Shown here: positions 11,932-59,940 of the stretch, piece by piece
Position numbering within the stretch: position 1 is the stretch's first letter
Layout: each line of letters opens with the position of its first letter
From: Candidatus Terrybacteria bacterium RIFCSPHIGHO2_01_FULL_43_35
Lineage (GTDB): Bacteria; Patescibacteriota; Minisyncoccia; Terrybacterales; GWB1-40-14
Length of the DNA stretch: 64,000 nucleotides
Assembly (NCBI GenBank): GCA_001822815.1
Contig: MHSR01000013.1
Location: 85,093 to 149,092 of the forward strand
Reading direction: 5' to 3'
Translations under genes and position numbers: made by a program
The notes under the pieces: generated by a model
Database searches by the model: none
What the model was told of the DNA's origin: nothing
Seen by the model: the letters and a program-made list of their open reading frames with translations, nothing else

Positions 11932-12657
11932 GTGTCGGGACATTCAAAGTGGTCGACAATCAAACATCAGAAAGAATCGCAGGATAAAAAACGCGGTCAA
12001 ATTTTCAGCAAGCTTGCTCGCGCAATTTCCATTGCCGCAAAAGACGGTGCAGACCCAGATAAAAACGCCAGGCTCCGCATGGAGATGGAGAAGGCACGAA
12101 AGTTCAACATGCCTAAAGACAATGTTACCAGGGCTATAGAACGCGGCAACGGCGCTACTGACGGAACAGCGCTTGAAAGTTTTACATACGATGCGTATGG
12201 GCCTGGCGGCGTTGCGCTTATTATCGAGGGGATATCGGATAACCGAAACAGGACCGCCGCTGAAATAAAGCGTATTTTAGCCGATCACGGAGGCAAAATG
12301 GCTGGAGAGGGTTCTGTAAATTGGATGTTTTCCCGTAGTGGAATTATCCGAACTTCTTTGCCAGAAGCCGCAAGCGCAAAAAAGGAAGCCTTATATTTAG
12401 ATATCATATCTGCTGGCGCAGAAGATATTATGGAAGCCGTCAACGGACTAAATATAATGGTGCCGGTCGAAAACATGGAGGCGGTGAAAAAAACTTTGTA
12501 TGATTACAATATTGAAATAGACGTTGTTTCTACAGAGTGGGTACCGAAGAACCGTGTTGTTGTGGCCGAAGACGATAAAAAACCCTTGGAAAGGCTTTTT
12601 GAGGCCCTGGATGAACACGATGATGTACAAGAGATATATTCTAATATGAAGGAATAA
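11932..12657 (+). CDS. yebC: YebC/PmpR family transcriptional regulator
   Basis: MSGHSKWSTIKHQK...KRGQIFSKLARAI is the canonical YebC N-terminus. Confidence 0.9.
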   Translation: MSGHSKWSTIKHQKESQDKKRGQIFSKLARAISIAAKDGADPDKNARLRMEMEKARKFNMPKDNVTRAIERGNGATDGTALESFTYDAYGPGGVALIIEGISDNRNRTAAEIKRILADHGGKMAGEGSVNWMFSRSGIIRTSLPEAASAKKEALYLDIISAGAEDIMEAVNGLNIMVPVENMEAVKKTLYDYNIEIDVVSTEWVPKNRVVVAEDDKKPLERLFEALDEHDDVQEIYSNMKE

Positions 12658-12801
12658 TTAATATGCCCAGTCATACAACTTCGACTGATCCGATTTCATC
12701 GAATCACAAACAACCGTTGAGGTTATAAAACTGGAAGTTATCTAATCAAATCAATTTCATAAAATTAGCCGAGTCTAATTGTCGAAGTTGATATACTGGG
12801 T

Positions 12802-13281
12802 ATGCGCATACTTGGCATTGATCCTGGAATAGCTACGACAGGGTGGGGTCTTATTGAAGTTGCCGATCATAAATTAAAGTGTCTTGATTTTGGCACCATA
12901 CAAACCTCCAAAAATCTCGGGTCCGCCGAAAGATTAAATACGATTGCTTTAGAGCTTAGTATTATTCTTGATAAATCTTCTCCGGACTTAGTTATTGTCG
13001 AGGAGATTTTTTTCGCTAAAAACCGAAAAACTGCTGTAGCGGTTGCACAGGCGCGCGGCGTAATTATGGCGGTCGCCCACGGACACGGAGAGGTGTTAGA
13101 AATGACACCGCTTCAGGTTAAACAATTTATCGCCTTTTCCGGAAAAGCTGGCAAGGAAAGGGTGGGTGTAATGGTTAAAAAATTTTTGGGTATGCGTAAT
13201 ATCCCCAAACCCGATGATGCGGCTGATGCCTTGGCCATAGCTGTGTGTGCGGCTTTTAACCGCAACAAAATACGTTTATAA
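12802..13281 (+). CDS. ruvC: Holliday junction resolvase RuvC
   Basis: MRILGIDPGIATTGWGLIE ... VEEIFF ... carries the catalytic D/E residues in RNase H-like fold positions. Confidence 0.9.
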   Translation: MRILGIDPGIATTGWGLIEVADHKLKCLDFGTIQTSKNLGSAERLNTIALELSIILDKSSPDLVIVEEIFFAKNRKTAVAVAQARGVIMAVAHGHGEVLEMTPLQVKQFIAFSGKAGKERVGVMVKKFLGMRNIPKPDDAADALAIAVCAAFNRNKIRL

Positions 13282-22863: not shown

Positions 22864-22897
22864 GCCCAGCCCCAATTTTTAAAAAATGGGGCTGGGC
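22864..22897 (+). terminator. Terminator hairpin GCCCAGCCCCA-N-TGGGGCTGGGC
   Basis: Perfect 11-bp stem around an A/T loop. The same stem sequence recurs near 57062 and 57270. Confidence 0.6.
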
Positions 22898-27854: not shown

Positions 27855-28409
27855 TTAAAAACCAAGCGCGTGGCCGATATTGGTCAAAGCATCGCCTATA
27901 AAACCGGCTACGCCGCCGACAGTCCCTACAACAAGCAGAATGATAATGATAAATGGAACAAACAGCATCATTATACCGAATACTAACCCTCCAATTATCA
28001 AAAACGGCACCAAGAAGCCTAAAGCCAGAGGATTACTTAAGAGGCGCTTAACCACGTGTCTTAAAACGAAGCCTTGCGGAGTGAATTGTTTTACGCCGGA
28101 AGTTGCGGCGTCTATTACTGCGCCAATACCCTGTTGACGCAGACTCTGTATGCGCGAGTGCCGCAGACCAGAACTTCTTTGATCTTCGTTGTCTTGAGGT
28201 GCCGTAGCCTTGGACGCAACGCGTTTGGCCACCTGCCTTAAGGCAAATCCTTGCGGAGTGAATTTTTTCACGCCCCCCGTTGCCGTATCTATAGCCTTAT
28301 TAATACCTTGCTGGCGCACGGCTTGAAGGCGCGCGCGGCGCAATTGTGCCTGGCGTTGCATTTCCACGTCTTGAGTTCCATCCATATTTAAAGCTGCTTC
28401 TTCGGCCAT
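27855..28409 (-). CDS. Membrane protein with two roughly 40-aa tandem repeats and a C-terminal double TM
   Basis: RRARLQAVRQQGINKAIDTATGGVKKFTPQGFALRQVAKR is repeated as RHSRIQSLRQQGIGAVIDAATSGVKQFTPQGFVLRHVVKR. Two TM helices follow. Confidence 0.5.
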   Translation of the reverse strand: MAEEAALNMDGTQDVEMQRQAQLRRARLQAVRQQGINKAIDTATGGVKKFTPQGFALRQVAKRVASKATAPQDNEDQRSSGLRHSRIQSLRQQGIGAVIDAATSGVKQFTPQGFVLRHVVKRLLSNPLALGFLVPFLIIGGLVFGIMMLFVPFIIIILLVVGTVGGVAGFIGDALTNIGHALGF

Positions 28410-28494: not shown

Positions 28495-30306
28495 TTAACT
28501 GTTTGGGCTACGGCTTTGTTTTAACGCCACCAACTGCTCCGGATCCGATGTTATTATCTTATCTTCGGTATATGAAGCCACTACTTTTATGGCCACATGT
28601 TTCAAGCCGGCGAAAAACAGCCCCTCCCCCACCGCGGCTTCCAATAGAAGATATTTTTCTTCATCCGTCAGGTTAAAGGCTTGTTTTACCGCCTCAATTG
28701 TCGCGGGAGATTGTTTGAACAATATTTGCAGAGAGGAATTGGTAATTAAAGGCTGGCCGTATTTTGAATTCAGGAAATCGTTGACGTCCTGCGTTATTGT
28801 GGACAGGCCCAAGTAATATTTGCGCGCTCGCTTGGCTATGGAATAAAGGAAAGATCCGCCGTCTTCATGTTGCATTACCCACCAGGCCTCATCCACAACC
28901 AGCATGCGTTTCTTTAGAGATCCGCGCACCACGTTCCATATATGGTGCAAAATCATGTACATGGCTATAGGCCTTAAAGAATCCTCAAGATCGCGGATGT
29001 TGAAGACCACAAGATTATTGTTCAAATCGAGATTTGAAGGTTGATCAACGAACCCGGCGCTCGTGCCTTCAGTGAATTTTTTTAGCCGCGCGGCTAATTC
29101 GTCTCCGCCAACCAAACTTTCCAATACGGTAATGAAATCCTTTAAAACCGGTGGGTTAATGTTTTTAAAATCGCTCTCCGGAGTTATGTTGCGTGAGGCG
29201 TATGTTTCTTCCACTGCCGTGTCCATCAAGGCTTCTTGAGTTTCGTTTATGGTCCCAAGCATTATTCTTAGCAAGCCCGTAAGCTCAAGAAGATGCGAGC
29301 GGAAAATATCGGCTTGGGATTCGCCCTCAACAACCCGCGGCAAATCAAAGGGATTAATTTTATTCTGGCTGGTCAAAGAAATTTTAAAATAACTTCCGCC
29401 CACGGCCTCGGCTAAGCGTTCATACTCGTTTTCGGGATCAATAATAATTACGTCAACGCCCACCATAAGCGAGCGCAATATTTCTAGTTTCATGGCATAG
29501 GATTTTCCTCCGCCAGATTGGCCAAATATCACTGTATTGGCATTGGGCAGACTGAAACGATCAAAAATAACCAGAGAATTGTTATGCCGGTTAACGCCAT
29601 ACATTATCCCCTTATCCGTCGTTAAATCAAAAGAAACAAAAGGGAAAATTGTCGCCAGCGATTCAGAATCCAGGTTGTTTGTAATATTCAACCAATCCTC
29701 GTTGTAAGGGAATGCCGATTTTAAGGCCTCGCTCTGTTGAAATACGGCTGGCTTGGCATAAACCAATTTTCCTTCCAGGAGAGACCTTAAGACCGTTTCC
29801 TGTTTATCAAGCTCTTCGGGTGTTTTGCTCCACACTGTTATATAAAGCGAGAACTGAAAAAGATGACTTGAGGCTTGTTGTAATTTGTCCCTTAATTCTT
29901 CAACGTCTTCATAAGCCGTTTCCAGTATTGGATCACGCACGAGACCTTTTTCCTCTTCTATGGCTATCTGTGATTCTACCTCAGCAACTTTTTTGCGCAG
30001 TTTTTTAAGTATCATTCCGGTATCAATAGGATGTATGTGCATAGAAATATCCATGACCGCATCCATGTTTATTATCGGCGCAAACCAGTTAGTGGATAGA
30101 TACCGGGGATAGGTGAATATAAAAAACGTCCGGCAGTAGCGCTCCCCTACCTTAATAAAATTCTGACCAAATTCCAGAGCCGCTGGCGCCACCAGATCTT
30201 TTAGGGTGGTAATGCCGCGGGCAAAAACCTGACCGGCCTCGGCGAGAATGCGCTCGGTTTCTTGAGAAGACGGCGTTTTTTGTTTTTTAGAAGATAAAAT
30301 AGACAT
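28495..30306 (-). CDS. virB4: VirB4/TrbE-family T4SS ATPase, C-terminal roughly 600-aa fragment (ATPase domain)
   Basis: Walker A VIFGQSGGGKSY and Walker B VVDEAWWVM. The N-terminus (LKDLVAPAALEFGQNFIKVGERYCRTF...) continues the VirB4 fold after the N-domain encoded separately at 30701-31363. Confidence 0.85.
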   Translation of the reverse strand: MSILSSKKQKTPSSQETERILAEAGQVFARGITTLKDLVAPAALEFGQNFIKVGERYCRTFFIFTYPRYLSTNWFAPIINMDAVMDISMHIHPIDTGMILKKLRKKVAEVESQIAIEEEKGLVRDPILETAYEDVEELRDKLQQASSHLFQFSLYITVWSKTPEELDKQETVLRSLLEGKLVYAKPAVFQQSEALKSAFPYNEDWLNITNNLDSESLATIFPFVSFDLTTDKGIMYGVNRHNNSLVIFDRFSLPNANTVIFGQSGGGKSYAMKLEILRSLMVGVDVIIIDPENEYERLAEAVGGSYFKISLTSQNKINPFDLPRVVEGESQADIFRSHLLELTGLLRIMLGTINETQEALMDTAVEETYASRNITPESDFKNINPPVLKDFITVLESLVGGDELAARLKKFTEGTSAGFVDQPSNLDLNNNLVVFNIRDLEDSLRPIAMYMILHHIWNVVRGSLKKRMLVVDEAWWVMQHEDGGSFLYSIAKRARKYYLGLSTITQDVNDFLNSKYGQPLITNSSLQILFKQSPATIEAVKQAFNLTDEEKYLLLEAAVGEGLFFAGLKHVAIKVVASYTEDKIITSDPEQLVALKQSRSPNS

Positions 30307-30700
30307 TTAGCTAAAATTTCTAATTACTAATTTCTAATTGACCTAAGCAACTCTCAAGATACAAGATACAATAACCAGACAAATCACAATAATCAAAAGT
30401 TCAAATTCCAAAGCTCATCCTTCGACTCTACTCAGGATGACCCTGAACGGAAACGAATGGGTCAAATGACAATTCATGGATTCGACTTCGCTCACCATGA
30501 CCCTGAGTAGAGTCGAACGGGTCAATGCTTAAAATTCAAAGGCTTAAAACCGTTTTTGTGCCTTAGTCATTTAGGCTTGAATTGAAATTTAGATTTTGGC
30601 ATTTGGGTATTGTCTGTATCTTGGGTCTTGGTTATTCGCAACATTTTTGTCATTAGACATAGGGATTTGATTAGAAATTAAGAATTAGAAATTAGACATT
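30307..30700. mobile_element. Family-A MITE-like palindromic element (394 bp) inserted between the two halves of virB4
   Basis: Terminal inverted repeats AAATTTCTAATTACTAATTTCTAATTGACCTAAG (30314-30347) and its reverse complement at 30664-30700. Internal sub-palindromes are present (TCGACTCTACTCAGG / CCTGAGTAGAGTCGA). Related copies lie at 37451, 45858 and 56991. AT-rich, no ORF. Confidence 0.6.
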
Positions 30701-31363
30701 TTAAGCTTCTGCATTCAATGCGGCCATATCGGGTACTCCGCCAGTCTCTTCCTTCTCTGGATTATACAGGCCCCAAATTAGTTCTATTAGTTCTTCGGTG
30801 GTAAGCATGGTTGACCTAGAGCCCAAACCGCGCAAGCCTTGTTCAACAAATTCTACCCGTTGCACAAGTTGATTGCGAAACTCGTGGAATTTTGCGGCAT
30901 CTATAAAAAACTCTTTTCTGGACGCGGGCAGTAAGGTGGATTTAATACTGCCCAAGGGGCCGGTGTCTTTGGCCGCCGCGGCTTCAAGCGCAAAGGGCAC
31001 TATAACATAATAGGTTTTAGACATTATGGATACGGTTTCCACAAAAGAGCGTATGAATTCAATATATTCTTGGGTTTGGATCTTTAAGAGTTCATTTTCT
31101 TGGGCGGCCTCTAACTGCGAAAGAGTTGATAAATAGCCGGATATATTTAGGCGGCGCGAATGGACAAAAATCTGTAGATTAAAGTCCAGTGAGTTTAGAA
31201 AATTCTGGAAACCGTATATTATAGCCTCCTGTTCGTCTTGAGACTTCAGGCCAAAATTGGTTGCCGAAACCATTAAAATGGCTCGCAAAGAGCCGTCTTT
31301 TAACACAATGACATCGTCGCGTATTTGTTCAAATTGTAGGAAAGATTGAGTGGAAGAAGGCAT
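30701..31363 (-). CDS. virB4: VirB4 N-terminal domain encoded as a separate ORF
   Basis: FEQIRDDVIVLKDGSLRAILMVSATNFGLKSQDEQEAIIYGFQNFLNSLDFNLQIFVHSRR aligns position by position with the N-domain of A. tumefaciens VirB4 (...DHIVLLEDGSIMSIARIDGVAFELEEIEMRN...). 220 + 603 aa approximates one full-length VirB4. Confidence 0.7.
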   Translation of the reverse strand: MPSSTQSFLQFEQIRDDVIVLKDGSLRAILMVSATNFGLKSQDEQEAIIYGFQNFLNSLDFNLQIFVHSRRLNISGYLSTLSQLEAAQENELLKIQTQEYIEFIRSFVETVSIMSKTYYVIVPFALEAAAAKDTGPLGSIKSTLLPASRKEFFIDAAKFHEFRNQLVQRVEFVEQGLRGLGSRSTMLTTEELIELIWGLYNPEKEETGGVPDMAALNAEA

Positions 31364-31395: not shown

Positions 31396-31453
31396 TGCAA
31401 CGACGTGCATCCTAAGGAGCGAAGCGACGAGGGACTACCTTAATAAAAAATTC
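31396..31453 (-). repeat. 58-bp leader repeat, copy 1 (upstream of the VirB4-N gene)
   Basis: TGCAACGACGTGCATCCTAAGGAGCGAAGCGACGAGGGACTACCTTAATAAAAAATTC, versus copy 2 at 31926-31983 with 6 mismatches. An adjacent 38-bp hairpin (31368-31405) reaches to 5 nt from the start codon. Confidence 0.6.
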
Positions 31454-31925: not shown

Positions 31926-31983
31926 TGCAACCATGTGCATCCCGAGGAGCGAAGCGACGAGGGACTACCTTAATAAAAAATTC
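31926..31983 (-). repeat. 58-bp leader repeat, copy 2 (upstream of the VirB3-like gene)
   Basis: TGCAACCATGTGCATCCCGAGGAGCGAAGCGACGAGGGACTACCTTAATAAAAAATTC. A CATGGTTGC...GCAACCATG hairpin (31897-31935) includes the start codon. Confidence 0.6.
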
Positions 31984-36631: not shown

Positions 36632-37399
36632 TTACGGAAGAACATCCGGTGGCAGATAGAAATTATACGTGTTTTCAAGGTTCTTGATTTCCGCAATGAT
36701 ACCCTCGGATTCCACGGCTATTTTTGAGTGTTCACCAGAATTCCATAAATTCAGCACATCTTCTGAATTTGAACCGGCGATATTTTTTAAGAACAAAATA
36801 TATTGCTTAATAAGCGCGAGGCTGTGTTCGTGAACTGCGGCGGCCTGCGAAGGAGGCGTTATGGCGCGGAGGGCTTGCAGTTGTCTTTCGTATTCGGAGA
36901 TAACTTCATTTAACGCCTCTTTTTGGCCCTTGGCCGCAAGGGCCAACGCTATTTTTATGGTGTCGGGATTATTGCCGCCAAAATCTATGGCCGAAGAGGC
37001 AACGAAGTATTCATAAAGTGAGCGAGCCGGTTCAGTTTTAGGTATCGGACTTTGAGTTTGCGGTTCCTGGTCGCCGGTTTGGGCCGTACCGTTCAGTATA
37101 GCGTCATCACTTTTGTTTAGGGCGTCCAGAAGGCCAGCCATAAAAGGTCTATATGTTCCCGGTATCGTGTTTTGTGGGTGCGTAGCGTTTTGGTTTGGCG
37201 CGTCAAACACCGATGTCAAAAAACTTGAAATAGACAAACCACCTTTCGGCTTCATTATAACACCGCTAGGATTTTTTGCTGATGTGGATAAGTGGCTTAT
37301 GGGAAAACTATTTCCAAAAGCAAAAAATCCCGCAAGCAACGGGATAGTTATAACCAGCAGGAGCTTGAGAAACCGATATAAAAAGACGCCTTTTAGCAT
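36632..37399 (-). CDS. Secreted/anchored protein, paralog 1 of a three-gene tandem family
   Basis: N-terminal TM. The C-domain (ALALAAKGQKEALNEVISEYERQLQAL...) resembles the C-domains of the proteins at 37644 and 38792. Confidence 0.5.
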   Translation of the reverse strand: MLKGVFLYRFLKLLLVITIPLLAGFFAFGNSFPISHLSTSAKNPSGVIMKPKGGLSISSFLTSVFDAPNQNATHPQNTIPGTYRPFMAGLLDALNKSDDAILNGTAQTGDQEPQTQSPIPKTEPARSLYEYFVASSAIDFGGNNPDTIKIALALAAKGQKEALNEVISEYERQLQALRAITPPSQAAAVHEHSLALIKQYILFLKNIAGSNSEDVLNLWNSGEHSKIAVESEGIIAEIKNLENTYNFYLPPDVLP

Positions 37400-37450
37400 A
37401 TTAAGTACTTAGCGAAAAGCGTAAAGCGCAAAACGTAAAATGCGGTTTCA

Positions 37451-37581
37451 AATTGACCTAATTACTCTAATTGATCTAAACAACGTCTAATGCCAAAATT
37501 TCTAAACGCGCATTTTGGTCATTGGTGCTTGGATATTGGGGCTTGCTTAGGTCAATTAGAAATTAGAATAATTAGAAATTT
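37451..37581. repeat. Family-A short palindromic element (TIRs only)
   Basis: AATTGACCTAATTACTCTAATTGATC ... GCTTAGGTCAATTAGAAATTAGAATAATTAGAAATTT. The right arm is the reverse complement of the left TIR at 30314-30350. Confidence 0.5.
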
Positions 37582-37643: not shown

Positions 37644-38579
37644 TCATGGCGCCGGCTGTTGTTCTCCGCTGGTTGGGGGGTTTTGAACTGCTGGTGGATT
37701 ATATTTTTCCTCCAGGCCTAAACGTATTCTTTCCAAAGCATAACCTTGTTGGACCAAGTCCCCTCCCCAGCGCACGTCACGCATAAGTTTTACCGGATCG
37801 GTATTAATTTCATACAGGTCGGCGAAAAGCTCCCGCAGACCTTTGAACAAACCAAGATAGCCCTTTTGGAGATCAACGGCTTCCTTGGGCGTCTGCAGGT
37901 TGCGGATATGTTGTTCGGTTTCGTTTATGCCGGCCAACACTTTTTCTACCACGTCCGCTTTTTGTTCCTGCACCACGCTTTGGGCAATGTCAAAATAAGA
38001 CGCAGTTTCGGCAGGAAGCTGGATAGTTGAAAATTCTTTAAGGTAATTTTTTACCGCGTCGGTACCATCGGCCGCGGATATATTTATGTCGCGGTCGGAT
38101 ATTTCAGGCAGGATAAAAGCATCCATCTTTTTTTCAGTCAAGAATTTTTCTATCTGTTTTTCGTCAAGCCGCGGATCATTGTCTCCGGTTTTGGTCTGGA
38201 GCCAGGAAAAATATTGGACAGTTAAGTTAGAGGCAAGTTTTGTATTTTCATCGACGCGCGCACGGCCAGACAGTGTGGGGTCATAACCATTTTTAACCTC
38301 ATCACCATCTTTGTATCTGTCGCCGTCGGTGTCTGGATTATTGGGATTCGTTCCGTAAATTAATTCCTTGGCGTCGGATAAGCCATCGCCATCTTCATCG
38401 TGTAAAAAAGAAGCCGCCGAACCAATGGCCGGCTGGTTTACGGGCGAGTTTGAAAATATGGAGGCTTTGAGATTGCGCACAAAATTGCCGTGCCAAAAAG
38501 CCGAGCCGCCATATATGGCCAAGCCCAACATTAAGAGATAAAAACCAGGTTTTATTAATTTACGAAAAAAGCGGCGCAT
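37644..38579 (-). CDS. Secreted protein, paralog 2, with DxDGDG calcium-binding-type (thrombospondin type-3-like) repeats
   Basis: HDEDGDGLSDAKELIYGTNPNNPDTDGDRYKDGDEVKNGYDP, with an N-terminal TM. Confidence 0.6.
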   Translation of the reverse strand: MRRFFRKLIKPGFYLLMLGLAIYGGSAFWHGNFVRNLKASIFSNSPVNQPAIGSAASFLHDEDGDGLSDAKELIYGTNPNNPDTDGDRYKDGDEVKNGYDPTLSGRARVDENTKLASNLTVQYFSWLQTKTGDNDPRLDEKQIEKFLTEKKMDAFILPEISDRDINISAADGTDAVKNYLKEFSTIQLPAETASYFDIAQSVVQEQKADVVEKVLAGINETEQHIRNLQTPKEAVDLQKGYLGLFKGLRELFADLYEINTDPVKLMRDVRWGGDLVQQGYALERIRLGLEEKYNPPAVQNPPTSGEQQPAP

Positions 38580-45857: not shown

Positions 45858-46058
45858 AGCATAAATTAAAAAGTAAAATGCTAATTGAAAATTTAAGAAA
45901 CAATTACCAAGAAACAAGATACAGACAATTTCCAATATTCAATAACCAATAATCAACTTTATGTTTGAATTTTGGAATTTGGGTATTGTAATTTGTCTGG
46001 TTATTGTTTCTTGTGTCTTGGTTATTATGACTTTTAATATTTAATTTTTGATCTGCGC
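45858..46058. repeat. Family-A-related palindromic element (inner arms)
   Basis: CAAGAAACAAGATACAGACAA...AATAACCAATAATCAA / TTTGGGTATTGT...TGTCTGGTTATTGTTTCTTG. Shares inner-arm words with 30350-30420 and 30570-30640. Confidence 0.45.
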
Positions 46059-51973: not shown

Positions 51974-53032
51974 ATGATTAACCGCGGCCCCATAAGCGAA
52001 TTAAAAAAACAGTTTCTTGAATATATAGAAGTAGAAAAAGGCCGTTCAGCCAAAACCGTAGAGAATTATGACCATTATTTGGAGCGGTTTTTCACTTGGC
52101 TTGTTGAAAATGTGAAGCCCCGTACCGAACGAAGTTCTGGTACTGGGGTTTCACGTGAAACCCCGTTAGAGGTCTCGCCCGCGCTTGCGCGCCCGCGAGA
52201 GTCTGCGGGGCGGGCCGCCTCTAACGAGGTGGAACCCCCTGTAGAAAAGCCTACTCTTTCAGATCTAACAGAAGAAAAGGTTAGAGCGTTTCGTGTGTGG
52301 CTCAACCGGAAATCGTTATCCAAACAGACACAGAATTATCACGTAATCGCACTGCGCATGTTCCTTAAGTTTCTTGCCCATAAAGGCATTGATGCTTTGT
52401 CCGCGGAACGTTTGGAGCTTGCTAAAACAGGCGCAAGGGAGGTTGATTTTCTTGAAGGTGAGGATTTGGAACGCATGCTTAGTGCGCCAAAAGGCAATGA
52501 TTTGCGCGCGTTGCGCGACCGAGCGATATTAGAAACCCTTTTCTCCACCGGCATGCGTGTTTCAGAGCTATGCGCCTTGGACATAGATCACATCAATATT
52601 GAAAAAGGAGAATTTGCTGTACGCGGGAAGGGCGATAAAATTAGGCCGGTTTTTCTATCGTATCACAGCAGAGAAACAATAAGGGATTACATGAACGCCC
52701 GCGCCGTAATAGTGGAAAAAGCCTTGTTTGTAAGGGTACCTCGTGGTAAGAATTCATTAAATAATGGTAATAATTTTACGCGCTTGACACCAAGATCGGT
52801 TCAGCGGTTGGTTCAACACTACGCGCAAAAAGCCGGCATAGTTGGTAAACACGTAAGCCCGCACACATTAAGACACTCTTTTGCCACCGATCTTTTGAGA
52901 AACGGCGCCGATTTGCGTTCGGTACAAGAAATGTTGGGACATTCTTCCATAACGACTACGCAAATATATACGCACGTCACAAACCCACAGCTAAAAAAAG
53001 TGCACGAAAAGTTCCACAAAGATCCTGAATAG
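51974..53032 (+). CDS. xerC: Tyrosine recombinase XerC/XerD family, with a roughly 40-aa repeat-derived insertion in the N-terminal core-binding domain
   Basis: C-terminal catalytic RHSFATDLLRNGADLRSVQEMLGHSSITTTQIYTHV. The N-domain is interrupted by a GC-rich segment encoding ...GTGVSRETPLEVSPALARPRESAGRAASNEVEPP... Confidence 0.85.
   Translation: MINRGPISELKKQFLEYIEVEKGRSAKTVENYDHYLERFFTWLVENVKPRTERSSGTGVSRETPLEVSPALARPRESAGRAASNEVEPPVEKPTLSDLTEEKVRAFRVWLNRKSLSKQTQNYHVIALRMFLKFLAHKGIDALSAERLELAKTGAREVDFLEGEDLERMLSAPKGNDLRALRDRAILETLFSTGMRVSELCALDIDHINIEKGEFAVRGKGDKIRPVFLSYHSRETIRDYMNARAVIVEKALFVRVPRGKNSLNNGNNFTRLTPRSVQRLVQHYAQKAGIVGKHVSPHTLRHSFATDLLRNGADLRSVQEMLGHSSITTTQIYTHVTNPQLKKVHEKFHKDPE
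52146..52230. repeat. Family-B GC-rich palindromic element inserted in-frame within xerC
   Basis: GGTTTCACGTGAAACCCCGTTAGAGG-(GC-rich core)-CCTCTAACGAGG. The first 45 bp are near-identical to 53783-53827. GC content is sharply higher than in flanking coding DNA. Confidence 0.55.
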
Positions 53033-53718: not shown

Positions 53719-53782
53719 AGCGTTCTCCTTTAAGTTTGAGGAACGATATTCATACTATAGCACATCTCTTACAAAAAAGCAA

Positions 53783-53930
53783 GGTTTCACGTGAAACCCC
53801 GTTAGAAATCTCGCCCGCACTTGCCCCGTTAGAGGCCCTCTTTTGGGAGGCAGTCACCCTTGACGATTTGCCTCTAACGGGGCTTGCGCGCCAGCGAGGA
53901 CCTTTGGGGCAGGCTGTTTCTAACGGAGTG
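53783..53930. repeat. Family-B nested palindromic element
   Basis: GGTTTCACGTGAAACCCCGTTAGAAATCTCGCCCGC ... CCCCGTTAGAGG-36 bp-CCTCTAACGGGG ... TTTCTAACGGAG. The 104-aa ORF called across it (53736-54050) is probably spurious. Confidence 0.5.
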
Positions 53931-54022
53931 AGACCATATCGTTTCCACCTTTCGCTTAATGACTTTACAACAAAATATAAAATGCTATGCTATACAAAAA
54001 TTAAAGAAGGAGGCACCTTAAA

Positions 54023-55483: not shown

Positions 55484-56992
55484 ATGATTAAGTATAATTG
55501 TATGCGAGAAAATAAAACAGTTTTGGAAGAAATAAAAGTGCCGGATAAGATTCAGCTGCCAAAAGAAGTTAAAGAGACGATGCAAAAGCTGGATAAAGGC
55601 GGCTTTAAGGCTTTTGTTGTGGGCGGGTGTCTGCGCGATATATTATTGAGCCGCGATCCCAAGGATTGGGATATAGCCACCAATGCCGAGCCAGAACAGA
55701 TTCAAGAGATTTTTCCGGATTCATTTTACGAAAATACTTTCGGCACAGTCGGCATAAAAACAGATTCAAAAAAAGAAGAGCTGAAAGTAATTGAAGTCAC
55801 TACTTTCCGCATCGAAAGTGATTATACCGACAAGCGCCATCCCGATTCGGTGCATTTTGCGAAAACCATTGAGGAGGATTTATCGCGCCGCGATTTTACC
55901 ATTAACGCCATGGCTTGGGATGGCAAAACGCTTATTGACCCTTATGGCGGACAAAAAGATCTTAAAAAAAGGACTATAAGGACTGTTGGCGATGCCGATC
56001 GGCGTTTTCAAGAGGACGCCCTAAGGCTTATGCGCGCTATACGCTTTGGCTCCGAGCTCAATTTTGTTTTGGATAGCAGGACAGCCGAATCCATGCACGA
56101 TCATGCCGGCTTGCTGGAGTTTATTTCTAAGGAGCGCATAGGAGACGAATTCCGCAAATTAATCATGACTACGCACGCGGCACGCGGCATAGAACTTTTG
56201 CGCGATTTAAAAATGCTAAAGTTTGTTTTGCCTGAACTTGAAGAAGGTTGGGATGTTGATCAGAATAAGCATCATATTTATACGGTGTGGGAGCATAATG
56301 TACGTGCCTTGCAATATGCTACCGAACAAGGATATTCTTTTGACGTGCGCTTGGCGGCGTTGCTTCACGATGTGGGCAAACCAAGAAGTAAGCGCGGCAC
56401 CGGTCCGGATTCAACTTTCTACGGCCATGAAGTTATCGGTGCCAAGCTTGCCGCGCGGGCCCTGGAGCGTCTGCACTTTTCTAAAAAAGAAATAGAAAAA
56501 ATATCTTTGCTGGTGCGCGCACATATGTTTAATTATGATCCAAATGTTGTCACCGACGCTTCAGTAAGAAGGCTTATAGCCAAAGTAGGGGAGGAGAACA
56601 TAAAAGATCTGGTTCAAGTGCGTGAAGCTGACCGCATAGGCTCAGGCGTCAAAAAAGCCGTGCCTTATAAGCTTAGGCACTTTATGTTCAGGATTGAGAA
56701 AGTTCTGGCCAAACCGGTTTCGCGCAAGACCATGAAGCTTGATGGAAATGAGCTTATGACTGTCTTGAAACTTGAGGCAGGACCGCGCGTGGGCGCAATT
56801 TTGGAAGCATTATTTGAAGAAATTTTAGATGATCCAGGGCGCAATAAGAAAGATTACCTTGTTGCGCGGGCAAAAGAATTAAATGAGATGTCAGATAAAG
56901 AACTTGGGGCCTTGCGCAAAAAAGCACAGGATAAGTACGCCTCAGTTCTTGAATACGAGGAAGGATTGATGAAAGACAAATATGGCGTATAA
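55484..56992 (+). CDS. cca: CCA-adding tRNA nucleotidyltransferase with HD domain
   Basis: Pol-beta NT motif FVVGGCLRDILL...DWDIAT. HD domain LLHDVGK...H...D. Confidence 0.85.
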   Translation: MIKYNCMRENKTVLEEIKVPDKIQLPKEVKETMQKLDKGGFKAFVVGGCLRDILLSRDPKDWDIATNAEPEQIQEIFPDSFYENTFGTVGIKTDSKKEELKVIEVTTFRIESDYTDKRHPDSVHFAKTIEEDLSRRDFTINAMAWDGKTLIDPYGGQKDLKKRTIRTVGDADRRFQEDALRLMRAIRFGSELNFVLDSRTAESMHDHAGLLEFISKERIGDEFRKLIMTTHAARGIELLRDLKMLKFVLPELEEGWDVDQNKHHIYTVWEHNVRALQYATEQGYSFDVRLAALLHDVGKPRSKRGTGPDSTFYGHEVIGAKLAARALERLHFSKKEIEKISLLVRAHMFNYDPNVVTDASVRRLIAKVGEENIKDLVQVREADRIGSGVKKAVPYKLRHFMFRIEKVLAKPVSRKTMKLDGNELMTVLKLEAGPRVGAILEALFEEILDDPGRNKKDYLVARAKELNEMSDKELGALRKKAQDKYASVLEYEEGLMKDKYGV

Positions 56993-57121
56993 ATTTCTAA
57001 TTTTTAATTTCCAATTTCTAATTATTCTTAAAAATAAATTGAAGACTGTGTCATGGTGTACCCAGCCCCAATTCTTAATTAGAGCTGGGCAGCAGTATGT
57101 CCTGGCACGCATTAAAAAACT

Positions 57122-57192: not shown

Positions 57193-57336
57193 CTAAAAAT
57201 TTCTAACGAGGCAAGGGTGCGCTTGTCCTGAGCATATTGAAGGATAAAGACCGAGTTCTTCCGCCCAGCCCCAGTTTGAAAAAATAACAAACTGGGGCTG
57301 GGCGGGATTGCTGTTTGTTTCCAATCGTTCCGACGA

Positions 57337-57365: not shown

Positions 57366-57467
57366 GATTCTCGGCGCCCCGACCCAGTTTTTAATCAAGA
57401 CCGATTTCTACTTAGGCGAATGCAGTTAAAACAAGTGTGTCCAAGCCATTGAACCATTACGGTGATA

Positions 57468-59178: not shown

Positions 59179-59745
59179 ATGAGCTATGCTTTAATGGGTA
59201 AGAAAGGACAGGTCAAAACGTCATATATGACAAAGAAAATAAGTAAAAAGGAACAGGATTTTATGCGCTCGTATGACGCTCATGCGGACGCGTTATTTCG
59301 GCACTGCTATTTTCGCGTATATGACCGTGAGCGAGCTAAAGAGCTAGTGCAGGAAACATTTATGCGTGCCTGGGAGTATGTGGTCAAAGGGCATAAAGTA
59401 CAAAATCTTCGCGCTTTCCTCTATCGAGTCGCAATAAACCTTATTATTGACGAATCGCGAAAGAATAAACCAGTCTCTTTGGATGAACTAGCTCAAAGTG
59501 GATTTGATGTAGCAAGCGAAGAGTATGAAATGCTGCACACGAAAATAGATGCCTCTAGCGCCGCAGCATTGTTTAAAAACTTGGACGACAAACATCGCGA
59601 GGTTATAATTTTACGTTATTTAGACGGGTTTAAGCCCAAAGAAATAGCCCGGATGCTTAATGAATCTGAAAACGTGGTTTCGGTGCGCCTGCACAGGGCC
59701 ATTAAACAAATTTCAGGCACGTTTACCGCACATGAATCCCGTTAG
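59179..59745 (+). CDS. ECF-type RNA polymerase sigma-70 factor
   Basis: Region 2 (ALFRHCYFRVYDRERAKELVQETFMRAWEY) and region 4 HTH (ILRYLDGFKPKEIARMLNESENVVSVRLHRAIKQI). Confidence 0.8.
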   Translation: MSYALMGKKGQVKTSYMTKKISKKEQDFMRSYDAHADALFRHCYFRVYDRERAKELVQETFMRAWEYVVKGHKVQNLRAFLYRVAINLIIDESRKNKPVSLDELAQSGFDVASEEYEMLHTKIDASSAAALFKNLDDKHREVIILRYLDGFKPKEIARMLNESENVVSVRLHRAIKQISGTFTAHESR

Positions 59746-59940
59746 AAGCCGCGATCGCAAAGGATTAGCAATAAACCCCGTTAGAAAGTTATTTTTGAAA
59801 CTTTTATAGGGAATATTATAATTGATGTGTTTGTGATGCGAGCTTTCTAACGGGGTAAAAATATCTATGTCATATATATAGTATCCATACAAATAATTTT
59901 GCAGATTGAGATCATTGATCGCGATCTGCTTCTAACGGGA
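59737..59940. repeat. Family-B nested palindromic element spanning exactly from the sigma-factor stop codon to the next start codon
   Basis: Outer IR TCCCGTTAGAAGC (59737-59749, containing the TAG stop) and GCTTCTAACGGGA (59928-59940, abutting the ATG). Inner IR CCCCGTTAGAAAG (59777-59789) and CTTTCTAACGGGG (59843-59855). Also GCGATCGC...GATCGCGATC sub-palindromes. Confidence 0.55.

What the first reader, a model, noticed from the sequence alone, without database searches (positions are those of the whole stretch)
37451..37581. Family-A AT-rich MITE-like elements at four loci with modular structure
The long element splitting virB4 (30307-30700) has TIRs that reappear alone as a 130-bp mini-element between two T4SS paralog genes (37451-37581). 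Its inner arms reappear without TIRs between comM and dksA (45858-46058). A TIR fragment (AAATTTCTAATTTTTAATTTCCAATTTCTAATT) starts at the stop codon of cca (56991-57034). This modularity suggests an active or recently active non-autonomous element family, with a deletion or recombination series.
Basis: seen in the sequence. Interest (0 to 1): 0.55.

Follow-up and report, generated by a model that had tools for sequence, protein, structure and literature searches.

The report
Gene-less copies of an intervening-sequence element
The four AT-rich repeats are real and are short, gene-less copies of a palindromic element common in ultra-small (CPR) bacteria, whose full-length form carries the same small gene found inside ribosomal-RNA "intervening sequences"; this suggests those long-puzzling insertions belong to a much larger family that also colonises the gaps between ordinary genes.

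Summary
All four loci share modules far beyond chance, and a profile built only from other organisms' elements finds the ends of three of them.

- The 394-bp element did not split virB4. The gene is two ORFs across the whole clade, and the two closest relatives (86% and 83% aa) have an empty 4-41 nt junction. The element is a later insertion between a stop and a start codon.
- These are not classical MITEs. There is no target-site duplication (58 elements equal the null) and no transposase.
- Each terminus is an array of about four CTAATT cores spaced 7 or 9 nt apart. The same arrays flank a ~120-aa gene of Pfam 23S_rRNA_IVP (four-helix bundle, S23p/Avd-like) in every 430-560-bp family member found. 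They also flank 4 of 4 IVP genes picked by protein homology alone.
- Short copies keep the polar "ATG-side" and "3'-side" ends of the long form, so they are internal-deletion derivatives.
- The window carries two complete minis (one with a nested GC-rich hairpin), one array-less palindrome and one solo array.

How the elements move is unknown. Processing of the transcribed hairpins by RNase III is plausible but untested. I rate this a new variant of a known kind, of moderate interest.

The parts
30307..30700 (.). Composite palindromic element filling the whole gap between the stop codon of the VirB4 N-half ORF and the start codon of the C-half ORF
   Evidence: RNA fold z -6.5 and -7.2. Both ends are hit by the independent end-profile. 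The element is absent at this junction in relatives L007/L009, L254 and L010-L013.
30313..30346 (+). Left terminal array, four CTAA(TT) cores: AAAATTT-CTAATTA-CTAATTT-CTAATTGAC-CTAA
   Evidence: E 1.6e-9. Same unit repertoire as the metagenome family.
30347..30411 (+). Left inner arm (A/C-rich, ~7-nt periodic: CAAGATA CAAGATA CAATAAC CAGACAA...)
   Evidence: I1: 81% complementary to 45964-46020.
30412..30581 (.). Nested GC-rich double hairpin in the apical loop (core 30421-30525). It belongs to a different hairpin family (GTCATCCTGAG...GTCGAAGGAT type).
   Evidence: (D18, I6), and (the same motif class in L124, L164, L225, L243, L247, L251).
30582..30669 (+). Right inner arm (G/T-rich complement of the left inner arm)
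   Evidence: D1 and I4.
30670..30700 (+). Right terminal array (ATTAGAAATTAAGAATTAGAAATTAGACATT). On the gene strand it reads AATGTCTAATTTCTAATTCTTAATTTCTAAT.
   Evidence: I19, 92%; E 6e-10.
37450..37581 (.). 132-bp ORF-less mini element between ORF 37644-38579(-) and ORF 36632-37399(-). The left array 37450-37479 is degenerate (3 cores); the right array 37547-37581 has 4 cores.
   Evidence: I3; z -3.5 and -4.0; E 7e-15 and 3e-14. The ends are polar: the left end ACAACGTCTAATGCC is a decayed ATG-type end, and the right end GCAAGCCCCAATATCC is a 3'-type end.
45859..46058 (.). 200-bp palindrome made of inner-arm sequence only (arms 45894-45956 and 45965-46027, 8-nt loop), between the dksA/TraR-type gene stop (46059) and the comM start (45858)
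   Evidence: I1, I2, I4; z -4.6 and -4.3. Not detected by the end-profile.
56991..57034 (+). Solo terminal array (AAATTT-CTAATTT-TTAATTT-CCAATTT-CTAATTATTCTTAA) that begins inside the cca stop codon and has no inverted partner
   Evidence: I7, I20; z -1.45, not significant; E 0.002.
30701..31363 (-). VirB4/TraC N-terminal-domain ORF (220 aa); context, not part of the element
   Evidence: (PF26593 TraC-like).
28495..30306 (-). VirB4 ATPase C-terminal ORF (603 aa); context, not part of the element
   Evidence: (P-loop_TraG, AAA_10, DUF87).

Best explanation
The four loci are gene-less, partly decayed members of a palindromic selfish-element family that is widespread in CPR/Patescibacteria.

The full-length form is a ~450-bp cassette. 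It consists of an array of ~4 CTAATT cores (7- or 9-nt spacing), then 'CTAA-NNN-ATG', a ~120-aa four-helix-bundle gene of Pfam 23S_rRNA_IVP, a short 3' segment, and an inverted AATTAG array. The IVP family also includes the ORF of 23S rRNA intervening sequences (S23p) and the DGR accessory protein Avd.

The minis are internal-deletion derivatives. They keep the two arrays and the first and last 20-60 nt of internal sequence, which pair with each other.

In this genome they were inserted into very short operon junctions: virB4-N/virB4-C, two T4SS-linked genes, dksA-like/comM, and after cca. They did not disrupt any ORF. One of them later received a nested GC-rich hairpin of another family in its apical loop.

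Shown:
- family membership;
- insertion relative to relatives;
- the link to IVP-bearing long forms;
- absence of target-site duplication and of a transposase;
- intergenic placement hugging gene ends.

Inferred:
(a) The arrays are the cis-acting site, recognised as a repeated core motif by a protein. The pentameric IVP is the obvious candidate, which would let minis be mobilised in trans.
(b) When co-transcribed with the operon, the elements fold into 40-60-bp imperfect hairpins. These would be cut by RNase III as rRNA intervening sequences are, separating the flanking cistrons without harming them.

The enzymatic step that moves the DNA is unknown.
For: Repeats are real and non-random.

Insertion:
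- The junction in the 86% relative is a 41-nt spacer. In the 83% relative it is TAA-ATAT-ATG, and in the 63-69% relatives it is 5-10 nt. None carries an element.

Family:
The first returned about half Patescibacteria of many classes.
- 65 elements have an inverted partner, with length modes of ~90-180 bp and ~430-560 bp.

Link to IVP:
- PF05635 hits with E 3.6e-10 to 6.4e-26 inside L015, L091, L028 and L034.
- An IVP ORF lies in every element of the 430-560-bp class, including one frameshifted (L216); a separate locus, L246, carries a partial IVP copy.
- PDB 2RLD is matched at 2.6e-10.
- 4 of 4 IVP genes chosen by protein homology alone are flanked by the arrays.

Deletion-derivative model:
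- The long form has polar ends (CTAA-AAAATGACCAAT... versus CTAA-TCAAATCCCAAT...). Both types recur at the two ends of many minis, and in decayed form in the window mini.

Selection:
- IVP pN is 0.13-0.30 against saturated pS of 0.6-0.77, yet the arrays at both ends stay recognisable.
- Cores per array peak sharply at 4 (85 of 122).

Dispersal:
- Whole minis 88-90% identical lie in unrelated flanks.

Context:
- Median distance is ~12 nt to a stop and ~16 nt to a start. 24 of 35 lie between co-directional genes.

Precedent (PMC4990558):
- The Coxiella 23S IVS is 428 nt with a 28-bp terminal stem and an S23p ORF preceded by 2-3 tandem heptamers.
- RNase III cuts at the first repeat.
Against: - No IVP gene is present in the 64-kb window, and the rest of the genome could not be searched, so an in-genome source is not shown.
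- There is no polymorphism among six assemblies of this species, so there is no sign of current activity.
- Against the RNA-hairpin part: stems show no excess of G:U over A:C on the transcript of the flanking genes (104 vs 146).
- The two arms of one element do not mirror each other in spacer sequence or unit length more than arms of different elements (8.4% vs null 13.4%; 51% vs 54%).
- None of the ~260 loci has the element inside an rRNA gene.
- The comM-dksA copy has no arrays and is linked to the family only through inner-arm similarity to the long element.
- Both large locus sets were ascertained with seeds taken from the arrays. Only the 4-of-4 test and the unselected second end of each element are free of that bias.
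Confidence: 0.72

Rival explanations
1. Classical MITEs: non-autonomous deletion derivatives of an insertion sequence, moved by a DDE-type (or other) transposase that binds the terminal inverted repeats and makes a fixed-length target-site duplication.
For: - Inverted termini, small size, no ORF, many copies, and presence/absence against relatives.
- The long window copy is flanked by a 9-bp direct repeat, TAGACATTT (30300-30308 and 30693-30701). The mini is flanked by a 7-bp repeat, GCGGTTT (37442-48 and 37585-91).
Against: - Across 58 elements, the longest direct match between flanks equals the null under three window definitions. By that null, the window's 9-mer has p~0.017 and the 7-mer p~0.18.
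- The 9-mer overlaps an array-like unit and the native start codon.
- Every long element with these termini encodes IVP, never a transposase.
- The termini are arrays of interchangeable units, not a fixed TIR.
Confidence: 0.08
2. Host-selected cis-regulatory RNA modules rather than selfish DNA. On this reading the arrays and hairpins are kept because they organise operon expression, for example as RNase III processing sites, translation re-initiation pads next to start codons, or binding arrays for an RNA-binding protein (as proposed for the TAACTGA heptamer arrays of Beggiatoaceae).
For: - Elements hug stop and start codons.
- In long forms the last core is followed by NNN-ATG.
- IVP genes are co-oriented with the upstream host gene in about 15 of 17 cases, plus 4 of 4 in the unbiased set.
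- Core motifs are conserved while synonymous sites are saturated.
- PMC4679880 reports heptamer arrays a few nt upstream of start codons in other phyla.
Against: - Close relatives run the same operon junctions with 4-41 nt and no element.
- The same mini occurs in unrelated contexts.
- No sigma-70 promoter or intrinsic-terminator consensus is present.
- There is no G:U enrichment on the sense transcript.
- Only 22 of 122 arrays close all three reading frames with their core TAAs.
Confidence: 0.15
3. Locally generated simple-sequence repeats: heptamer arrays and hairpins that arise in place by replication slippage and palindrome formation in AT-rich spacers, without transfer between sites.
For: - The sequence is low-complexity with 7-nt periodicity.
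- The same heptamer also occurs as pure tandem runs in unrelated phyla (L061, L127, L016, L098).
- Heptamer copy number varies between Coxiella strains (PMC4990558).
Against: - 57-nt inner arms are 81% alike at loci 15 kb apart.
- Whole elements 88-90% alike lie in unrelated flanks.
- Array length is fixed at ~4 cores rather than open-ended.
- The ends are polar and homologous to the ends of the IVP cassette.
- An independent profile detects the window copies at E down to 7e-15.
Confidence: 0.04
4. A self-splicing intron, intein-like or programmed-bypass element that interrupts a single virB4 gene and is removed at the RNA or protein level.
For: The 394-bp highly structured insert sits exactly between two halves of a protein that is a single ~790-aa chain in other Parcubacteria.
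Against: - Both halves are complete ORFs with their own stop and start codons.
- The two-ORF arrangement exists without any insert in relatives at 63-86% identity.
- There is no Rfam intron match at the gathering or E<=1 thresholds.
- The reading frames of the two halves do not join across the proposed empty site.
Confidence: 0.01

Closest known systems
23S rRNA intervening sequences (IVS) carrying an S23p / 23S_rRNA_IVP ORF (Leptospira, Coxiella, Brucella, Xanthomonas; PMC4990558)
   Same: - A ~430-450-nt unit with terminal inverted repeats that form a long stem.
- An internal ~120-aa four-helix-bundle ORF of the same Pfam family.
- Tandem short repeats immediately upstream of the ORF's ATG.
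- ORF-less and decaying versions exist.
- Sporadic, horizontally patchy distribution, with an unknown mobility mechanism.
   Different: - These elements lie in spacers between protein-coding genes (and between tRNA genes, as in L206), not in rRNA helices. None of ~260 loci was inside an rRNA gene.
- The repeat unit is CTAATT with 7/9-nt spacing, in arrays of ~4 at both ends, whereas Coxiella has GACAGAT x2-3 at one end.
- RNase III cleavage is untested here.
- There are many copies per lineage.
Bacterial MITEs co-transcribed into mRNAs and processed by RNase III, such as the Neisseria Correia/NEMIS elements (from general knowledge; reviews PMC2229807 and PMC10969869 were listed but not read)
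   Same: - Elements of ~100-150 bp with inverted ends, sitting in operon spacers.
- They fold into hairpins when transcribed.
- They vary in presence or absence between relatives.
   Different: - Correia elements have a TA target duplication and fixed 26-bp TIRs. No duplication was found here, and the termini are motif arrays.
- The long partner here encodes IVP, whereas Correia elements have no known autonomous partner.
Heptamer tandem repeats of cyanobacteria (STRR) and the TAACTGA arrays of Beggiatoaceae, Cyanobacteria and Bacteroidetes (PMC4679880)
   Same: - Intergenic arrays of 7-nt units, often a few nt upstream of start codons.
- A patchy distribution across phyla that suggests horizontal spread with no known mechanism.
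- The first scan also hit Nostoc, Bacteroidota, Sulfurovum and uncultured Gammaproteobacteria.
   Different: - Those are described mainly as direct-repeat arrays. Here the arrays come in inverted pairs that bound a cassette, with a fixed size of ~4 cores and mixed 7/9-nt units.
- No association with IVP genes is mentioned in that paper (one search found no 'S23' or 'four helix').
Avd, the accessory protein of diversity-generating retroelements (same Pfam family; PMC10053308 holds the accession PF05635 (paper not read), and the Avd-PF05635 link is from general knowledge)
   Same: It is a homologous small four-helix-bundle protein. From general knowledge, it forms a pentamer and acts together with nucleic acid and a polymerase.
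   Different: No reverse transcriptase, template repeat or variable repeat was seen next to the IVP cassettes inspected. A retro-mobility role is pure conjecture.

Membership tests
IVP-cassette palindromic elements (the family defined here) | Terminal arrays of ~4 CTAATT cores at 7/9-nt spacing, in inverted orientation at the two ends | tested here: met
   Met for the long element (30313-46 and 30670-700) and the mini (37450-79 and 37547-81): profile E 7e-15 to 1.6e-9. One array only at 56991-57034 (E 0.002). Not met by the comM-dksA copy.
IVP-cassette palindromic elements (the family defined here) | Polar internal ends homologous to the 5' (ATG-side) and 3' ends of the IVP cassette | tested here: inconclusive
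   The window mini has a decayed ATG-type end (ACAACGTCTAATGCC) and a 3'-type end (GCAAGCCCCAAT). Both inner ends of the long element look 3'-type. This was judged by eye and by regular expression, not by a statistical test.
IVP-cassette palindromic elements (the family defined here) | Internal 23S_rRNA_IVP gene (full-length form) | tested here: not met
   tblastn with four IVP proteins finds nothing in the window. The window copies are ORF-less derivatives.
23S rRNA intervening sequence (IVS) | Located inside an rRNA helix (23S helices 9, 25 or 45) | tested here: not met
   All four window loci lie between protein-coding genes or beside a tRNA gene. No rRNA is present in the window.
23S rRNA intervening sequence (IVS) | Terminal complementary sequences that form a long stem | tested here: met
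23S rRNA intervening sequence (IVS) | Optional S23p/IVP ORF preceded by short tandem repeats | tested here: met
   Met in family members elsewhere, but not in the window copies.
23S rRNA intervening sequence (IVS) | Excised from the transcript by RNase III without re-ligation | not testable with these tools
MITE (miniature inverted-repeat transposable element) | Terminal inverted repeats, small size, no ORF, multiple copies | tested here: met
MITE (miniature inverted-repeat transposable element) | Target-site duplication of fixed length | tested here: not met
   58 elements under three window definitions all match the null.
MITE (miniature inverted-repeat transposable element) | Parent autonomous element with the same termini that encodes a transposase | tested here: not met
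   The parent-like long form encodes only IVP.
REP/BIME elements mobilised by RAYT (IS200/IS605-like) transposases | 20-40-bp GC-rich palindromes with a GTAG or CGTC head | tested here: not met
   The sequences are AT-rich arrays without such heads. The comparison criterion comes from the PMC3733652 abstract.
Group I/II intron or intein in virB4 | Conserved catalytic RNA structure, or an in-frame protein-splicing domain that restores one ORF | tested here: not met
   No Rfam match, and the ORFs are separate in relatives that lack the insert.

The most novel reading that the evidence does not exclude
rRNA 'intervening sequences' may be only the visible tip of a large class of IVP-encoding palindromic mobile cassettes that colonise any transcribed spacer. 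On this reading the pentameric four-helix-bundle IVP protein (homologous to DGR Avd) is the element's own mobility or maintenance factor. It would act on the ~4-core CTAATT arrays and also mobilise ORF-less minis in trans. This would be a transposition-like system with no recognisable transposase and no target duplication.
Probability: 0.2. Interest if true: 0.8.

Novelty: new variant of a known kind. Interest (0 to 1): 0.58.

Why it matters
- IVSs and their S23p/IVP ORF have been known since about 1990, yet neither their origin nor the protein's function is understood (PMC4990558).
- If the elements seen here are the same kind of object, the IVS becomes one niche of a very abundant family: at least 7993 IVP protein clusters matched at E<=1e-10, many from CPR bacteria.
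- The family offers natural long, short and decayed forms, an orientation bias, and hundreds of insertion sites. That makes the questions 'what does IVP bind?' and 'how do IVSs move?' testable by comparison and by simple biochemistry.
- On the practical side, these elements explain many broken contigs, and possibly some spurious small ORFs, in CPR assemblies.
- They also warn against reading a structured insert between two gene halves as the cause of a gene split.

Tried and rejected
- **blastn self-comparison** to find inverted partners missed most of them. I replaced it with local alignment.
- **Wobble test** for an RNA-level stem gave no G:U excess on the host transcript, and if anything the reverse.
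- **Insertion into the loop of a pre-existing hairpin:** only 2-3 of 58 flanks are complementary, against 0.3-1 expected.
- **Arrays as universal three-frame stop signals:** only 22 of 122 arrays close all frames with their core TAAs.
- **Promoter or terminator function:** no consensus sites in the elements.
- **Rfam,** at both gathering and E<=1 thresholds, gave only sub-threshold chance miRNA-like hairpin hits.
- **An orthologous long-versus-mini pair:** L225/L257 have unrelated flanks, and L193/L246 share a flank but L246 looks rearranged or chimeric.
- **Elements inside rRNA genes** among the fetched loci: none. L237 has one ~550 nt upstream of the 16S gene.
- **Strain polymorphism** in the window elements: none.
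- **Literature searches** for the array sequences, for PF05635/S23p outside rRNA, and for MITE or palindromic elements in CPR found no prior description in the held library. That library lacks most subscription journals.

Full report
**Source and setting.** The window is part of contig MHSX01000014.1 of GCA_001822905.1, a groundwater CPR/Parcubacteria genome. The same sequence was assembled independently in several samples. The region holds a CPR-type type IV secretion operon on the minus strand (PrgI-like, TraC-like, VirB4 ATPase and T4SS pilin genes). It also holds comM, a dksA/TraR-type zinc-finger gene, cca and four tRNA genes.

**Checking the observation.** All four loci are as described.
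The outer array plus the start of the inner arm is shared by 30327-30377 and 37516-37566 (82% over 51 nt).
- Inner arms are shared by 30355-30411 and 45964-46020 (81% over 57 nt), and by 30582-30636 and 45902-45956 (73%).
- The array alone is shared by 30670-30701 and 56991-57022 (84%).
- The core 12-mer is about nine-fold over-represented in the window (13 matches against 1.5 expected).
- The three palindromes fold far better than shuffled controls (z -3.5 to -7.2). The solo array does not (z -1.45).
- A profile HMM built only from element ends found in other metagenomes detects both ends of the mini (E 7e-15 and 3e-14), both ends of the long element (6e-10 and 1.6e-9) and the cca array (0.002). 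It does not detect the comM-dksA palindrome. The observation therefore stands, including the statement that one copy lacks the termini.

**virB4 was not split by the element.**
- A search with the joined halves shows that the ~600-aa C-terminal ORF on its own is the rule in a whole clade at 60-86% identity, including Giovannonibacteria. Single ~790-aa proteins appear only at ~50% identity.
- In relatives the two ORFs are adjacent: 5 nt apart in L012/L013, 8-10 nt in L010/L011, TAA-ATAT-ATG in L254 (83% aa), and a 41-nt plain spacer in L007/L009 (86% aa).
- In the window, 394 bp sit exactly between the stop codon (30701-30703) and the start codon (30304-30306). The element is a later insertion into a pre-existing junction.
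- No intron model matches it.

**What the termini are.**
- They are not a fixed inverted repeat. They are arrays of a CTAATT core, read AATTAG on the other arm.
- The cores are separated by 1 nt (7-nt unit) or 3 nt (9-nt unit; GAC, AAC, ATT, GCT, ACT, GAT).
- Arrays have 2-5 cores with a sharp peak at four (85 of 122).
- The two arms of one element share spacer sequence and unit length no more often than arms of different elements (8.4% against a null of 13.4 +/- 2.4%; 51% against 54%). In the array region the core motif is conserved, not base pairing.

**The family outside the window.**
- A degenerate array pattern hit at least 120 stretches in species-representative genomes. About half were Patescibacteria of many classes. 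The rest were Bacteroidota, Sulfurovum, uncultured Gammaproteobacteria, Chloroflexia, Nostoc and others.
- An 18-mer of the window's array subtype hit at least 120 metagenome stretches.
- Of the metagenome hits, 65 have an inverted partner. Lengths fall into two classes, ~90-180 bp and ~430-560 bp, plus a few longer.

**The long form carries an IVP gene.**
- Every element of the 430-560-bp class contains a ~120-aa ORF of Pfam PF05635, 23S_rRNA_IVP. The best hits have E 6.4e-26 to 3.6e-10, and PDB 2RLD is matched at 2.6e-10.
- The ATG follows the last core as CTAA-NNN-ATG.
- One long element (L216) is frameshifted, and a further locus (L246) holds a partial copy.
- The loci above were ascertained through the arrays, so I ran an unbiased test. 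Four IVP genes were chosen by protein homology alone (P0138, P0172, P0203, P0167). All four have a four-core CTAATT array upstream and a three- to four-core AATTAG array downstream.
- The IVP family is very large: at least 7993 protein clusters at E<=1e-10, the named ones being CPR bacteria. Many sit on contigs under 2 kb, as expected for a repeat that breaks assemblies.
- Between copies, pN is 0.13-0.30 while pS is saturated at 0.6-0.77. The gene is therefore maintained by selection, and the arrays have stayed recognisable over the same divergence.

**Minis are deletion derivatives.**
- The long form is polar. The end next to the ATG reads CTAA-(A/T)AAATG(A/T)CCAAT..., and the other end, read inward, reads CTAA-TCAAATCCCAAT....
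- These two sequences are largely complementary and extend the stem beyond the arrays.
- Many minis carry one end of each type (L140, L155, L203, L207, L217, L250 and others).
- The window mini has ACAACGTCTAATGCC (an ATG-type end with ATG mutated to ACG) at its left end and GCAAGCCCCAATATCC (3'-type) at its right end.
- The long window element is the same kind of mini with a 170-bp GC-rich double hairpin nested in its loop. That module belongs to another hairpin family (GTCATCCTGAGCG...GCGAAGGATC) seen at other CPR loci. A related GC-rich hairpin is present or absent between two otherwise identical contigs (L141/L239).

**Evidence bearing on mobility.**
- For: the empty junctions in relatives, and whole minis 88-90% identical in unrelated flanks (L130/L141, L157/L213, L189/L253).
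- Against a classical mechanism: the flanks of 58 elements show no direct repeat beyond the null under three window definitions.
- The window's own flanking repeats (9-bp TAGACATTT, 7-bp GCGGTTT) have p~0.017 and ~0.18 by that null. The 9-mer overlaps an array-like unit and the native start codon.
- No transposase accompanies the arrays anywhere I looked.
- Six assemblies of this species are identical across the elements, so nothing shows current activity.

**Context and orientation.**
- Elements are intergenic and tight against genes, with a median of ~12 nt to a stop and ~16 nt to a start.
- 24 of the 35 with both neighbours called lie between co-directional genes.
- IVP genes point the same way as the upstream host gene in about 15 of 17 array-ascertained cases and in 4 of 4 unbiased ones.
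- The few minis whose polarity can be read are mostly antisense (7 of 8). The window mini is antisense too. That would fit loss of the ORF where it cannot be expressed, but the numbers are small.

**RNA level.**
- The hairpins are long enough to be RNase III substrates, and the Coxiella IVS gives a direct precedent. It has a 28-bp terminal stem, tandem heptamers before the S23p ATG, and an RNase III cut at the first repeat (PMC4990558).
- My tests do not add support, however. G:U pairs are not enriched on the host transcript (104 against 146 A:C), the arms do not co-vary, and no promoter or terminator consensus is present.
- I therefore hold the processing step as plausible (about 0.4), not shown.

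**Comparison with what is known.**
- The closest known objects are the S23p-bearing 23S rRNA intervening sequences. The window elements fail the defining location test (they are not in rRNA) and lack the ORF. They are best described as ORF-less relatives of an IVS-like cassette living in mRNA spacers.
- They resemble MITEs in form but fail the duplication and transposase tests.
- They share the heptamer-array habit with cyanobacterial STRR and Beggiatoaceae TAACTGA repeats (PMC4679880). That paper does not mention an IVP link.
- I found no description of IVP cassettes with such arrays outside rRNA, or of their miniature forms, in the searchable library. That library omits most subscription journals, so prior description cannot be excluded.

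**Verdict.** I rate it a new variant of a known kind, of moderate interest. It ties an ordinary-looking repeat to the unresolved biology of IVSs and the IVP/Avd protein family and makes that biology testable. The mobility mechanism and any RNA processing remain unproven.

Noticed in passing
window 31396-31453 and 31926-31983: A 58-nt direct repeat (93%) lies in the minus-strand leaders of the TraC-like N-half gene and the PrgI-like gene. It contains a GC-rich hairpin-like motif (GTCCCTCGTCGCTTCGCTCCT.GGGAT). Relatives have 2-nt or overlapping junctions at these places (L254, L012), so these are probably further insertions in the T4SS operon.
   Followed up: partly
window 52145-52236 and 53781-53935: Another repeat family (GGTTTCACGTGAAACCCCGTTAGA... 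followed by a GC-rich stretch; up to 93% identical over 42 nt), with a weaker third copy near 59735-59787.
   Followed up: no
window 22864-22897, 57060-57090, 57263-57300, 57376-57397: Hairpins that share the stem sequence CCCAGCCCCA...TGGGGCTGGG. They look like terminators with a conserved stem. One flanks the solo array after cca, and two lie around tRNA-Pro.
   Followed up: no
L239 1377-1486 versus L141 7301-7329: Two contigs with 100% identical flanks differ by a ~110-nt GC-rich double hairpin (GTCATTCCCG...CGGGAATCC and ATCCCCGATCAGGTCGGGGATGAC). It is present in one contig and replaced by 29 nt in the other. This is a presence/absence polymorphism of the GC-rich hairpin class that also nests inside the window's long element.
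   Followed up: partly
window 28195-28246 (inside ORF 27855-28409) versus L003 12061-12086: A strain variant of the same species differs by 26 nt within a 72-nt internal repeat of the 184-aa ORF downstream of virB4 (repeat copies at 28044-28115 and 28221-28292). Gene calling dropped that ORF in L003.
   Followed up: no
window 28495-31363 and loci L007-L013, L254: VirB4 is encoded as two adjacent ORFs (a ~220-aa TraC-like N domain and a ~600-aa ATPase) throughout a Parcubacteria clade that includes Giovannonibacteria. Other Parcubacteria encode it as one ~790-aa ORF. A recent survey of CPR T4SS (PMC12102498) does not contain the word 'split'.
   Followed up: partly
L034 3593-4041 (Sulfurovum); also L016, L017, L098 (Acidobacteriota, Chloroflexia): Outside CPR the same heptamer occurs with the arms swapped (AGAAATT array first, AATTTCT array second). 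In Sulfurovum this arrangement flanks an IVP gene. In Chloroflexia and Acidobacteriota the two arrays lie 80-140 nt apart with no ORF between them.
   Followed up: partly
L206 ~12602-12819: A 217-bp mini element sits between what appear, judged by eye, to be the 3' end of one tRNA gene and the 5' end of the next. If so, the family also occupies spacers of non-coding RNA operons.
   Followed up: no
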